From IMG/VR virus record IMGVR_UViG_2537561689_000014: DNA of 14,455 nucleotides. One strand, 5' to 3'. The stretch's first letter is position 1; every line of letters begins with the position of its first letter. Both the position numbers and the translations under genes were made by a program. This document shows positions 6,886 through 13,780 of this stretch, piece by piece. Origin of the DNA: a virus. Its lineage: Duplodnaviria > Heunggongvirae > Uroviricota > Caudoviricetes. The notes under the pieces were generated by a model that worked only from the letters and a program-made list of their open reading frames with translations, was not told the origin of the DNA and made no database searches.

Positions 6886-7018
6886 TTTTTGGGACTCCTG
6901 GCTGATTAAGTATGTCGATAAGGCGTTTCCATCCGTCACGTAATTTACGGGTGATTCGTTCAAGTAAAGATTCGGAAGGGCAGCCAGCAACAGGCCACCC
7001 TGCAATGGCATATTGCAT
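6854..7018 (-). CDS. cIII: CIII (FtsH inhibitor that stabilises CII-type activators)
   Basis: Translated by hand, since it is below the track cut-off: [54 protein letters not shown] (54 aa), recognised as lambda CIII. Start ATG at 7018, stop at 6854-6856. Confidence 0.85.
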   Translation of the reverse strand: MQYAIAGWPVAGCPSESLLERITRKLRDGWKRLIDILNQPGVPKNGSNTYGYPD

Positions 7019-7090
7019 GGTGTGCTCCTTATTTATACATAACGAAAAACGCCTCGAGTGAAGCGTTATTGGTATGCGGTAACGCCGCGC

Positions 7091-11140: not shown

Positions 11141-11838
11141 AAAACATCGCCGCACAGATGGTTAACTTTGACCGTGAGCAGATGCGTCGGATCGCCAACA
11201 ACATGCCGGAACAGTACGACGAAAAGCCACAGGTACAGCAGGTAGCGCAGATCATCAACGGTGTGTTCAGCCAGTTACTGGCAACTTTCCCGGCGAGTCT
11301 GGCTAACCGTGACCAGAACGAACTGAACGAAATCCGCCGCCAGTGGGTTCTGGCTTTCCGGGAAAACGGGATCACCACAATGGAACAGGTTAACGCAGGA
11401 ATGCGCGTAGCCCGTCGGCAGAACCGACCATTCCTGCCATCACCCGGGCAGTTTGTTGCATGGTGCCGGGAAGAAGCATCCGTTATCGCCGGACTGCCAA
11501 ACGTCAGCGAGCTGGTTGATATGGTTTACGAGTATTGCCGGAAGCGAGGCCTGTATCCGGATGCGGAGTCTTATCCGTGGAAATCAAACGCGCACTACTG
11601 GCTGGTTACCAACCTGTATCAGAACATGCGGGCCAATGCGCTTACTGATGCGGAATTACGCCGTAAGGCCGCAGATGAGCTTGTCCATATGACTGCGAGA
11701 ATTAACCGTGGTGAGGCGATCCCTGAACCAGTAAAACAACTTCCTGTCATGGGCGGTAGACCTCTAAATCGTGCACAGGCTCTGGCGAAGATCGCAGAAA
11801 TTAAAGCTAAGTTCGGACTGAAAGGAGCAAGTGTATGA
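11137..11838 (+). CDS. P: Replication protein P (DnaB helicase loader)
   Basis: 233-aa ORF MKNIAAQMVNFDREQMRRIANNMPEQYDEKPQVQQVAQIINGVFSQ..., recognised as lambda P. Its start overlaps the O stop. Confidence 0.95.
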   Translation: MKNIAAQMVNFDREQMRRIANNMPEQYDEKPQVQQVAQIINGVFSQLLATFPASLANRDQNELNEIRRQWVLAFRENGITTMEQVNAGMRVARRQNRPFLPSPGQFVAWCREEASVIAGLPNVSELVDMVYEYCRKRGLYPDAESYPWKSNAHYWLVTNLYQNMRANALTDAELRRKAADELVHMTARINRGEAIPEPVKQLPVMGGRPLNRAQALAKIAEIKAKFGLKGASV

Positions 11839-12008
11839 TGGGCAAAGAGGCAATTATTCATTACCTGGGGACGCACAAGAGCTTCTGTGCGCCGGACGTT
11901 GCTGCGACAACAGGTGTGACATTAACCAGCATAAATCAGGCTGCGGCAAAAATGGCGCGGGCAGGAATCCTGGTCATTGATGGTAAGGTCTGGCGAACGT
12001 TTGTTTAA
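11835..12008 (+). pseudogene. ren: Truncated ren (57 codons instead of about 96)
   Basis: ATG overlaps the P stop (ATGA), as in lambda. MMGKEAIIHYLGTHKSFCAPDVAATTGVTLTSINQAAAKMARAGILVIDGKVWRTFV* resembles lambda Ren up to about residue 55, then hits a stop where unrelated AT-rich DNA begins. Confidence 0.65.
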
Positions 12009-12154
12009 CGGTTAGCTACTCAGGATGATAGGGCGGGGCAAGTGAGTATGAAGCGGATTTTCAGGAATGCCATCAGAGTTTGGAAATAAAGTGGGTTTTC
12101 TAGTGGCAAGAGACTTGATAATATTTAGTTCTTTGAATCCAAGGAGATAGGGTT

Positions 12155-12649
12155 ATGAGAAAATTTATTTTAGCCTTTGTTATAAGTGCCTCGTTTACAG
12201 CAAATGCTGGTGTAGAGAAGTTAGGGCCGTGGATAACAAAGTCTGAGATAAATAAAATGACTGACCAGACTGACTTTGTGGCCCTTAATTTATCACCAGA
12301 TTCATATAACAAAGCAGGTACTGATCGTGCAACTTCACTGGTGTTGCGTTGTAGTGATAACAAAACAGATGCCTATTTATCATTCAATGATTATATGGGT
12401 TCGGACAACCCAAGAATTACAGTGCGGTTAGATGGCGGAAAGCCGGTCAAGAGTGTTTGGGGAGGTGGGGAAGGCGGTGATTCTGCATTTGCTCCACAAC
12501 CAATACAATTTATAAAGACCTTGGCTAAGCATAAAAAAGCTATTTTTGGGTTTGAACCTTATGGATCAACTATGCAAGTAGTTGAGTTTGACTTGTCTGA
12601 GATTGATAAGGTTGTGGAAAAAATTTCACAGTCTTGCAATTGGAAATGA
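12155..12649 (+). CDS. Hypothetical secreted protein with a Sec signal peptide; AT-rich accessory gene
   Basis: 164-aa ORF with AAGGAG Shine-Dalgarno 8 nt upstream. N-terminus MRKFILAFVISASFTANA-GVEK is a signal peptide with an AxA cleavage site and no lipobox. Two Cys in the mature part. Followed by a strong terminator. Confidence 0.7.
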   Translation: MRKFILAFVISASFTANAGVEKLGPWITKSEINKMTDQTDFVALNLSPDSYNKAGTDRATSLVLRCSDNKTDAYLSFNDYMGSDNPRITVRLDGGKPVKSVWGGGEGGDSAFAPQPIQFIKTLAKHKKAIFGFEPYGSTMQVVEFDLSEIDKVVEKISQSCNWK

Positions 12650-12666
12650 CAAAAAAATTTCATATG

Positions 12667-12694
12667 AACCCAGTTTGCGCTGGGTTTTTTATTT
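12667..12694 (+). terminator. Rho-independent terminator
   Basis: AACCCAG-tttgcg-CTGGGTT followed by TTTTTTATTT, 18 nt after the stop at 12647-12649. Confidence 0.7.
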
Positions 12695-13780
12695 CAGTAG
12701 CCAATAATGCATTCAAAATCTCTTACTTGAGAAACGGCCTATTTGAGATTTCAGTCGTGGCAGGATGATCAGTTGATTCGAGTATTGACGCATTTGCGTT
12801 CGGAGCGATTACAGTAGATTGTAAATAATAATGAGAAACACATAGCCACCCCGTGGTATTGAAACCATATAATGTTGGATTTGAAAACAGATCTTTTCCC
12901 ATGTATTAATAACTACATCCCCGCGAGTGATTCAAAAAGGAGGGCCCAATTTTGTCCGAGTTTTTGTATTCCCCCGCATGCCGCTGCGGAGCACTACATC
13001 TGAGTGTCTGACTAGGGGATAAAATTAGACTGGATAGTGAGAAGAAAGTGGCGCGCTAGGCTGTGCCGAGTGCTACCAGTACACCTTGGGGGTGTGCAGC
13101 TTTCGCCGAGACTGTAGTGGGTATCGGTTAATGCACGAAAAACCGAGAGGTCAGACAACCAATTTGCCGTAGGATTGTTTCCGGTGCGATACCGGTCTAC
13201 TAACTGAAAGCAATGCGAAAAAGCATAAACTCGGTCCTTCAGTCGCCCTACACACTATTTACTAAGAAGGGCTGAAGCATGGATACAATTATTACATGGA
13301 TGGGAGATCGTCTGTTGGGGGGACACAAAAATCCGATCTGCGGCAGATGGCGATCACTGGATTAACTTCCGCGATTTGTTCAACAATTTTGTACACTGAA
13401 AAATTAAAACATGGTGAGCCTATTAACCCAAACGAAGAAGAAAAACTTTATAGGCTTTGGTATGAAGGAAACGCTTGAAAGAATAAAGCACAATTAAAAC
13501 CTTTGATTTGCGATAATCAACTTGCCATAATTAAGTAATCGGAGTCTGAACAACTCCGGTGACTTCTGCGCTAAACGGGGACGTTTATGCGCACATACAA
13601 TCCAAACTATCTTCTCCTTTCACAGATGCAGAAATGCACCTGCAATTCTTTGCATCTAGCGTTTGACCTCTGCGGAGGTGAAGCGTGAACCTCCCACAAG
13701 ACGGCATCAAATTACATCGCGGCAACTTCACCGCTATCGGCCAGCAGATCCAGCCTTATCTGGAGGAAGGCAAATGCTTT

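What the first reader, a model, noticed from the sequence alone, without database searches (positions are those of the whole stretch)
12155..12694. AT-rich gene for a secreted protein with a strong Shine-Dalgarno and its own terminator
Seen directly: a signal peptide MRKFILAFVISASFTANA with an AxA site, an AAGGAG Shine-Dalgarno, and a textbook terminator at 12667-12694. The gene is AT-rich and sits where the nin region should be. An exported protein encoded by a prophage in a self-contained transcription unit is typical of lysogenic-conversion factors. I cannot place the mature domain in any family from memory.
Basis: partly seen in the sequence, partly recalled or inferred. Interest (0 to 1): 0.6.

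Follow-up and report, generated by a model that had tools for sequence, protein, structure and literature searches.

The report
Mobile prophage moron encoding secreted VasI-like protein
This is a real, self-contained 580-base "add-on" gene cassette in an E. coli lambda-like prophage; it makes a small exported protein related to the C-terminal domain of the type VI secretion accessory protein VasI/TagO, its function has never been tested, and its relatives usually sit next to the tail tape-measure gene.

Summary
ORF 12155-12649 (164 aa) has an AAGGAG ribosome-binding site, a Sec-type signal peptide (MRK, hydrophobic core, ANA|G) and a hairpin-plus-T terminator. It is AT-rich: 39% GC against 53% in gene P.

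The window is a lambdoid prophage at the lambda attachment site. The gene lies between a decayed ren and the still-present nin genes.

The mature domain can be placed. By profile-profile comparison it is homologous to the C-terminal 150 residues of VasI/TagO (PF11319). It has an IalB-like fold and belongs to PHROG 1848, whose function is unknown. It lacks the VasI N-terminal Cys motif, falls far below the NCBIfam VasI cut-off and is not near any T6SS gene, so RefSeq's "TagO" name over-reaches.

The cassette is mobile, from a predicted extended -10 promoter to the terminator. All E. coli copies sit after ren. Of 39 more distant viral copies, 36 lie upstream of a tape-measure gene, and one relative occupies the exact slot of the HK97 gp15 exclusion moron.

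dN/dS of about 0.1 shows a working gene. My best guess, untested, is a prophage-expressed periplasmic factor that blocks incoming phage. It is an ordinary kind of element carrying an uncharacterised cargo of moderate interest.

The parts
11835..12103 (+). ren pseudogene; left boundary of the cassette
   Evidence: RefSeq annotates 'protein ren, frameshifted; internal stop'. tblastn of an intact Ren gives 70% identity over residues 1-78 at 11835-12068.
12116..12124 (+). Predicted extended -10 promoter, TGATAATAT (TGn + TAATAT), 31 nt upstream of the ATG
   Evidence: Read from the sequence. TGNTAWWAT occurs only twice in the 14.4-kb window on both strands. Relatives in the tail-module slot carry TGnTAGGAT or TGnTAACAT at -39 to -49, and these align with this site. 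Not shown experimentally. The standard -35/-10 scan found nothing here.
12141..12146 (+). Shine-Dalgarno AAGGAG, 8-nt spacer to the ATG
   Evidence: The motif ...GG(A/G)GATAGGG(A/T)TATG is conserved in relatives.
12155..12208 (+). Sec-type (signal peptidase I) signal peptide, residues 1-18, predicted cleavage ANA|GV
   Evidence: Feature analysis of the protein and 23 homologues. pLDDT below 50 for residues 1-17. No Cys, so it is not a lipoprotein.
12209..12646 (+). Mature 146-aa domain of VasI-C / IalB-like fold, with invariant Cys66 and Cys161 (probable periplasmic disulfide)
12647..12649 (+). Stop codon TGA
12666..12692 (+). Intrinsic terminator (GAACCCAG-TTTG-CGCTGGGTT plus T-run); right end of the mobile cassette
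   Evidence: It is homologous to the terminators of tail-slot copies, and similarity stops right after the T-run. Terminators also follow the Pantoea, Serratia and Klebsiella copies.

Best explanation
The feature is a moron: a roughly 580-bp horizontally mobile cassette (about 12110-12692) inside a lambdoid prophage.

Inferred steps:
- It is probably transcribed from its own extended -10 promoter while the prophage is repressed.
- It is also read through from pR under N antitermination during lytic growth.
- Its product is exported by Sec and cleaved after Ala18.
- It then folds in the periplasm into a disulfide-stabilised IalB/VasI-type beta-sandwich, a protein-binding module.

Most likely job (inference, not shown): an envelope-level exclusion or defence factor. 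I propose that it binds a component which an incoming phage tail must use or deploy while crossing the periplasm, such as the tape measure or tail-tip complex or a host partner. This would protect the lysogen and the prophage from superinfection. HK97 gp15 does this from the same genomic slot, and T4 Spackle does it as a periplasmic binder of the tail spike.

Shown: the gene, its export signals, its homology, its fold, its mobility and purifying selection.
Inferred: expression in lysogens, periplasmic location, the binding target and the exclusion phenotype.
For: 1. Moron architecture and mobility.
- Cassette homology between the window and tail-slot copies runs only from the extended -10 element to the terminator.
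- The gene is 39-45% GC in loci of 49-54% GC.
- The same slot between ren and nin holds other cargo (emrE, ybcK) in a DLP12-like prophage.

2. Export.
- The three-part signal peptide is conserved in 24 of 24 homologues.
- Two Cys are invariant across the whole superfamily.

3. Phage association.
- Full-length match to PHROG 1848.
- An identical protein is carried by the isolated phage IdasGreatGrand.
- Relatives occur in lambdoid, P2-like, Pasteurella and Brucella phages.
- The same fold appears in the T4-like phages RB16, KP15 and VH7D.

4. Recurrent placement beside the tape-measure gene in three unrelated tail-module types.
- 36 of 39 viral loci at 55-81% identity have a tape-measure homologue downstream.
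- In 18 of 23 non-redundant loci the tape-measure gene starts 55-94 nt after the stop.
- Relative P0032 sits exactly between gpT and the tape-measure gene of a lambda/HK97-like module. This is the slot of the HK97 gp15 superinfection-exclusion moron (PMC3594210).
- Relative P0036 sits directly after a tape-measure gene.
- Neighbouring morons in that slot are also envelope proteins: a lipoprotein and a small membrane protein.

5. The fold is a periplasmic interaction module.
- It is fused to Sel1/TPR, ankyrin, DUF2939, cytochrome c and Zn-ribbon-TM segments.

6. There is a precedent for a periplasmic exclusion protein that binds a tail part: T4 Spackle (PMC7677548).

7. Purifying selection: dN/dS 0.085-0.11.
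Against: - There are no expression, localisation or phenotype data for any member.
- PADLOC has no match, and no paper on phage-borne members was found.
- Identical alleles sit next to tape-measure proteins that share only 5-39% N-terminal identity. Allele identity does not track tape-measure identity (rho 0.04). The adjacency may therefore simply mark an insertion hot-spot rather than a functional pairing.
- In the window itself the gene is far from any tail gene.
- The promoter is only a sequence prediction. The 68%-identity group lacks an exact TGnTAnnnT upstream.
- Homologues in T6SS clusters and IalB in alpha-proteobacteria point to non-phage roles for the same fold.
Confidence: 0.35

Rival explanations
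1. It is a lysogenic-conversion factor that alters the host envelope or host-animal interaction (adhesion, invasion or serum resistance). This is analogous to lambda Bor and Lom and to the invasion-associated protein IalB, whose fold it shares.
For: [quoted passage not shown]
- Many of the 100%-identical E. coli copies are in human ETEC isolates.
- The moron architecture fits.
Against: - IalB's molecular role is itself unknown.
- The gene also occurs in E. coli from soil, wastewater, frogs, mink and salad, and in a phage isolated from swamp mud.
- Fold relatives in strictly virulent T4-like phages cannot act through lysogenic conversion.
- Sequence identity to IalB is only 9-10%, and Pfam IalB gives no hit.
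Confidence: 0.15
2. It has a T6SS-related function. It could be a phage-borne VasI/TagO that modulates the host's own type VI secretion system, or a periplasmic shield against incoming T6SS attack.
For: - There is robust homology to the C-terminal domain of VasI, including E. coli EDL933 VasI, which lies between tssH and tssA.
- RefSeq names it TagO.
- Most host genera of the close subfamily (Escherichia, Klebsiella, Serratia, Pantoea, Enterobacter) commonly carry T6SSs (general knowledge).
Against: - NCBIfam VasI equivalog scores 14.4 bits against a 124.2 cut-off.
- Identity to E. coli T6SS VasI is only 18%.
- The N-terminal Cys...RLxCYD segment is absent.
- No T6SS gene lies within 13 kb on either side, nor in any of the prophage contexts examined.
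- Two motif-bearing 'VasI' representatives also lie in mobile elements, not in T6SS clusters.
- Relatives occur in a Brucella phage, and Brucella has no T6SS to my knowledge.
- The function of VasI/TagO is itself listed as unknown (PMC13584744).
Confidence: 0.12
3. It acts in the phage's own lytic cycle rather than in lysogeny. For example, it could be a periplasmic factor that stops progeny virions from wasting themselves on already infected or lysed cells, or one that tunes lysis.
For: - The gene is co-oriented with the pR operon here and with the late tail operon in relatives, so it would be transcribed during lytic growth.
- Fold relatives exist in virulent T4-like phages.
- The 68%-identity group shows no clear promoter of its own.
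Against: - Flanking terminators and a predicted promoter insulate the cassette from the operons.
- It is dispensable: only 85 of 5426 E. coli genomes carry it, and most lambdoid phages lack it.
- This reading overlaps mechanistically with the exclusion model, so it is hard to separate from it.
Confidence: 0.12

Closest known systems
HK97 gp15 moron (superinfection-exclusion protein)
   Same: It is a small AT-rich add-on cassette with its own transcription signals that encodes an envelope-targeted protein. Relatives of the window gene occupy the same slot, between the tail-assembly chaperone (gpG/gpT) and the tape-measure gene (PMC3594210).
   Different: The protein is unrelated: gp15 is a YebO-like inner-membrane protein, not a cleaved periplasmic beta-sandwich. 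In this window the cassette sits after ren, not in the tail operon. Exclusion has not been tested for this family.
VasI / TagO (Pfam PF11319, TIGR03360), T6SS accessory protein
   Same: The whole mature domain is homologous (hhalign probability 100%, E 5e-46). It shares the Cys pair, the conserved Trp residues and the signal peptide. The function of VasI is also unknown.
   Different: It lacks the N-terminal 35-75 residues that carry the C...RLxCYD motif. It shares 18% identity with E. coli VasI and is far below the NCBIfam equivalog cut-off. It sits in a prophage, not in a T6SS cluster.
IalB, invasion-associated locus B (PDB 3dtd; Pfam PF06776)
   Different: Identity is 9-10%, and the window protein gives no Pfam IalB hit. 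IalB is an alpha-proteobacterial chromosomal family, and its molecular function is unknown.
T4 Spackle (Sp), periplasmic superinfection-exclusion protein
   Same: It is a phage-encoded, signal-peptide-bearing periplasmic protein that neutralises part of an incoming tail (PMC7677548). It serves as the functional model for the best explanation.
   Different: There is no sequence or fold similarity. Spackle comes from a virulent phage and targets the gp5 lysozyme. The analogy rests on inference only.
PHROG 1848
   Same: The window protein is a full-length member (236 bits, E 2.7e-70). The P2-like 297-aa protein is also a member through its C-terminal domain.
   Different: The PHROG carries no functional annotation, so membership names the family without explaining it.

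Membership tests
Moron (independent add-on transcription unit in a phage genome) | The gene is absent from otherwise related phages and present at different positions in different phages | tested here: met
   85 of 5426 E. coli genomes carry it, whereas about 2500 carry the flanking P/ren sequence. It sits in the ren-nin slot in E. coli, in the tape-measure slot in 36 of 39 viral loci, and at the prophage end in P2-like phages.
Moron (independent add-on transcription unit in a phage genome) | Base composition differs from the surrounding genes | tested here: met
   39% GC against 53% for gene P. Relatives are 39-45% GC in loci of 49-54% GC.
Moron (independent add-on transcription unit in a phage genome) | The cassette has its own terminator | tested here: met
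   Hairpin plus T-run at 12666-12692. It is conserved and alignable in other contexts. Termination activity was not measured.
Moron (independent add-on transcription unit in a phage genome) | The cassette has its own promoter that is active in the repressed prophage | tested here: inconclusive
   An extended -10 element, TGATAATAT, lies at 12116-12124. There are only two such matches in the window, and similar motifs occur in most lineages. There is no -35 match and no transcript data, and one lineage lacks the motif.
VasI/TagO, T6SS-associated protein (PF11319 / TIGR03360) | Score above the curated family threshold | tested here: inconclusive
   Pfam scores 26.7 against 26.5, barely above threshold and covering only the C-terminal half. 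NCBIfam equivalog TIGR03360 scores 14.4 against 124.2, which is not met. Profile-profile homology of the domain is certain.
VasI/TagO, T6SS-associated protein (PF11319 / TIGR03360) | Full-length architecture including the N-terminal Cys...RLxC(Y/F)D segment | tested here: not met
   The Pfam match starts at profile position 78 of 184. The motif is absent here but present in 58 of 150 family representatives. hhalign covers only template columns 57-205.
VasI/TagO, T6SS-associated protein (PF11319 / TIGR03360) | Encoded within or next to a T6SS gene cluster | tested here: not met
   The 27-kb annotated neighbourhood holds only prophage and host housekeeping genes. For contrast, EDL933 vasI lies between tssH and tssA.
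VasI/TagO, T6SS-associated protein (PF11319 / TIGR03360) | Contributes to T6SS-dependent killing or virulence | not testable with these tools
   This needs genetics. It has been shown only for V. cholerae VCA0118 (PMC3166118).
IalB family (PF06776) | Sequence match to the family profile | tested here: not met
   No PF06776 hit at E <= 1. Only the fold is similar.
Sec-exported, signal peptidase I-cleaved periplasmic protein | Three-part signal peptide with small residues at -3 and -1, and no lipobox | tested here: met
   MRK / FILAFVISASF / TANA|G. The layout is conserved in 24 of 24 homologues. SignalP was not available and export was not shown.
Superinfection-exclusion / anti-phage defence protein | Match to a known defence family, or a demonstrated exclusion phenotype | tested here: not met
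   PADLOC gives no hit and the phenotype is untested. The functional proposal rests on context and analogy only.

The most novel reading that the evidence does not exclude
The VasI-C/IalB-like domain could be a general periplasmic binder of envelope-crossing injection machinery, meaning a phage tail tip or tape-measure conduit and the T6SS tube or spike. On this reading the phage-borne, domain-only version is a new class of soluble periplasmic exclusion protein that jams incoming phage tails, or T6SS spikes. It would be carried as a mobile cassette that preferentially lands beside tape-measure genes. If true, it would also give the first mechanistic handle on the long-unexplained T6SS accessory protein VasI/TagO and on IalB.
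Probability: 0.12. Interest if true: 0.75.

Novelty: new member of a known kind. Interest (0 to 1): 0.4.

Why it matters
- Prophage morons are a main source of phage-resistance and fitness traits in enteric bacteria, and most remain uncharacterised.
- This one is compact, under strong purifying selection and mobile as a unit.
- It recurs next to tape-measure genes in three unrelated tail-module types, including the slot of the first characterised exclusion moron.
- It is also a domain-only relative of VasI/TagO and shares a fold with IalB. Both of those proteins have phenotypes but no known mechanism.
- A simple plating or competition experiment with this 164-aa protein could define a new exclusion family and shed light on those two.

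Tried and rejected
- PDB sequence search: only chance-level hits.
- PADLOC defence models: no hit for the protein, for its P2-like relative or for the adjacent Zn-ribbon protein.
- Rfam and tRNA scans of the window: nothing in or near the cassette.
- Standard -35/-10 promoter scan: no upstream site. I therefore looked for extended -10 elements instead.
- Allele pairing with the tape-measure gene: I tested whether the gene's alleles co-vary with the adjacent tape measure, as a matched exclusion pair would. They do not (rho 0.04 for the N-terminus, 0.22 for the C-terminus; identical alleles lie next to tape measures of 5-39% identity). I dropped the specific-pairing version of the hypothesis.
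- Recent capture from the E. coli T6SS: rejected, because identity to EDL933 VasI is only 18%.
- Scan of one genome per species: only 3 loci, so it gave little context.
- afdb50 fold library: unavailable.
- Context look-ups: P0034 is not on record and the P0041 contig is too short.
- Gap 12650-13586 downstream: I considered an ncRNA. There is no Rfam hit, and folding z-scores are -0.4 and -0.5. Part of the gap is explained by decayed gene remnants.
- Literature searches for DUF3121, PF11319 with prophage, and TagO with prophage: nothing on phage-borne members.

Full report
**What the window is.** The window is 100% identical to E. coli chromosomes such as ETEC strain 120899. The RefSeq annotation shows a lambdoid prophage next to ybhC. 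In order it carries int, xis, exo/bet/gam, kil, cIII, sieB, a cI-like repressor, cro, cII, O, P and a frameshifted ren (window 11835-12103). Then comes the gene in question. A stretch of about 940 bp with no annotation follows, and then ylcH, ybcN, ninE, ybcO, rusA and quuD. So the gene lies at the left edge of a nin region that is still present, rather than replacing it.

- ORF: 12155-12649, 164 aa.
- Ribosome-binding site: AAGGAG at 12141-12146, 8 nt from the ATG.
- Signal peptide: MRK / FILAFVISASF / TANA|G. Charge is +2, the hydrophobic window has mean Kyte-Doolittle 2.46, and Ala is at -3 and -1. There is no lipobox. The same layout is kept in 24 of 24 homologues, although the peptide sequence drifts while the mature part stays conserved. 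AlphaFold is unconfident only for residues 1-17.
- Terminator: a 9-bp stem at 12666-12687 followed by a T-run. On its own this is not above chance (1 found, 1.8 expected). However, a terminator sits at the same place after the Pantoea, Serratia and Klebsiella copies and after most viral copies, and it aligns with the window's.
- Composition: 39% GC (GC3 32%) against 53% in gene P.
- The gene is functional: dN/dS is 0.085-0.11 against relatives 75-81% identical.

**What the protein is.**
- Pfam: PF11319 (VasI) scores 26.7 bits against a 26.5 cut-off, and only profile positions 78-184 are matched.
- NCBIfam: the VasI equivalog scores 14.4 bits against a 124.2 cut-off.
- PHROGs: a full-length match to phrog_1848, function unknown (236 bits).
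- Family size: a profile search of 1.84 billion representatives finds 3825 clusters at E <= 1e-3. Of the best 150, 58 carry an N-terminal C...RLxC(Y/F)D motif that the window protein lacks. Others are fused to Zn-ribbon-TM, Sel1/TPR, ankyrin, DUF2939 or cytochrome c segments.
- Homology: profile-profile comparison with a VasI-type alignment that includes the E. coli EDL933 T6SS VasI gives probability 100% and E 5e-46 over the whole mature domain. The two Cys and the Trp residues are conserved. Pairwise identity to EDL933 VasI is only 18%.

The protein is therefore a domain-only, signal-peptide-bearing member of the VasI-C/IalB-like superfamily. RefSeq's name "T6SS-associated protein TagO" reflects domain homology, not context. 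No T6SS gene lies within 13 kb. Two motif-bearing "VasI" representatives that I could place also lie in a phage-like contig and in an integrative element.

**It is a mobile cassette.**
- The gene is rare: 85 of 5426 complete E. coli genomes, and 3 of 185,579 species-representative genomes for the close subfamily.
- All 41 IMG/VR loci at 98% identity or more have it after P and ren.
- All relatives at 55-81% identity whose context was examined are in prophage or viral contigs of Enterobacterales and sit in the tail module. Of 39 such viral loci, 36 have a tape-measure homologue downstream.
- In 18 of 23 non-redundant loci the tape-measure ORF starts 55-94 nt after the stop. The gene usually follows the DUF6246 chaperone-like gene, sometimes with ant, arc, KilA-N or YafO morons in between.
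- Alignment of the window with tail-slot copies shows similarity that begins at an extended -10-like element. This is TGATAATAT at 12116-12124 in the window, and TGnTAGGAT or TGnTAACAT at -39 to -49 elsewhere. Similarity continues through the conserved ribosome-binding region and the ORF, and ends right after the terminator T-run.
- TGNTAWWAT occurs only twice in the whole window.
- The unit that moved is therefore about 12110-12692: promoter, ribosome-binding site, ORF and terminator.
- The ren-nin slot is itself a cargo site. A DLP12-like prophage carries emrE, ylcJ and ybcK there.

**Clues to function.**
- More distant relatives repeat the tape-measure adjacency in other tail-module types. 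P0032 lies exactly between gpT and the tape measure of a lambda/HK97-like module. P0036 lies directly after a lambda-type tape measure. P0033 lies in a prophage remnant next to DUF6246.
- The chaperone/tape-measure junction is where the HK97 gp15 moron sits. gp15 is a prophage-expressed protein that blocks DNA entry in a tail-dependent way (PMC3594210).
- Other morons sharing the slot with this gene encode a lipoprotein and a small membrane protein.
- A periplasmic exclusion protein that binds a tail component has a precedent in T4 Spackle (PMC7677548).
- Against a matched pair: identical alleles of the gene lie beside tape measures with 5-39% N-terminal identity, and allele similarity does not track tape-measure similarity (rho 0.04). 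The adjacency may only mark a permissive insertion site.
- PADLOC has no match. The literature holds nothing on phage-borne members.
- VasI/TagO is listed as of unknown function (PMC13584744). [quoted passage not shown] IalB's mechanism is also unknown.

**Verdict.** The most likely reading (about 0.35) is a prophage-expressed periplasmic exclusion or defence factor that interferes with an envelope-crossing step of incoming phage. The rivals are:
- envelope or virulence conversion (0.15);
- T6SS modulation or protection (0.12);
- a lytic-cycle periplasmic role (0.12).

The rest is unknown. Shown here are the gene, its export signals, its homology, its fold, its mobility and selection on it. 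Expression in lysogens, localisation, the target and the phenotype are all inferred.

The element is an ordinary kind, a moron, with an uncharacterised cargo from a catalogued family. It is worth a simple plating experiment but is not categorically new.

**Side observation.** The 940-bp gap downstream (12650-13586) is largely decayed DNA. It holds the tail end of a P22AR-C gene (12731-12817) and a frameshifted, internally deleted remnant of a 118-aa gene (13279-13478). It also holds a stretch of about 330 nt that is 78% identical to Klebsiella phages, with no ORF, no Rfam hit and no significant predicted fold.

Noticed in passing
window 12650-13586: This is a gap of about 940 bp with no annotated gene between the cassette and ylcH/ybcN. 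Part of it is decayed genes: the last 29 codons of a P22AR C-terminal-domain gene (12731-12817), and a frameshifted, roughly 124-nt-deleted remnant of a 118-aa hypothetical gene (13279-13478). The gap sequence occurs in 156 E. coli genomes against 83 for the cassette, so the two are separate mosaic modules.
   Followed up: partly
window 12917-13245: This 330-nt stretch of about 50% GC is 78% identical to the Klebsiella phages Kp4856-1 and Kp4862-1 and 94% identical to a DLP12-like E. coli prophage. It has no ORF, no Rfam hit and no significant predicted RNA structure (z -0.4 and -0.5). It is conserved non-coding DNA of unknown role in the nin region.
   Followed up: partly
window 13500-13600: The last 100 nt or so before ylcH/ybcN are conserved in about 2600 E. 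coli genomes and many lambdoid phages. In the phage 82 record X92588 the same stretch is annotated with -35 and -10 signals and a possible regulator-binding site upstream of orf33.
   Followed up: no
window 6973-7031 (-): The lambda cIII thermoregulator RNA element (Rfam RF01804) is present at 88.5 bits, E 7e-21. This is consistent with a lambda-type early left operon.
   Followed up: no
L003 5235-6465 (Escherichia phage 500465-2, P2-like): At the prophage end, next to host flk, a 110-aa zinc-ribbon protein (phrog_6586) precedes a 297-aa protein whose C-terminal half is the same VasI-like domain. Elsewhere the zinc ribbon, a TM segment and the domain are fused into one protein (P0067, P0072, P0102). 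This suggests a two-part membrane-spanning version of the module at a P2 cargo site.
   Followed up: partly
L066 6560-6977; L082 6446-6835: Between the VasI-like gene and the tape-measure gene some phages carry a second small envelope-protein moron: a 128-aa lipoprotein with a LAGC lipobox, or a 129-aa protein with an N-terminal TM segment. In L066 this second gene is preceded by a near-copy of the promoter and ribosome-binding region of the first cassette.
   Followed up: no
L105 5682-12455; L107 1585-6815: Two full-length, motif-bearing PF11319 'VasI' proteins from metagenomes do not lie in T6SS clusters. One lies beside a Rha-family gene and a 1947-aa ORF. The other lies in an integrase/YagK-YfjJ island. 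This hints that part of the family is mobile-element cargo rather than T6SS-associated.
   Followed up: partly
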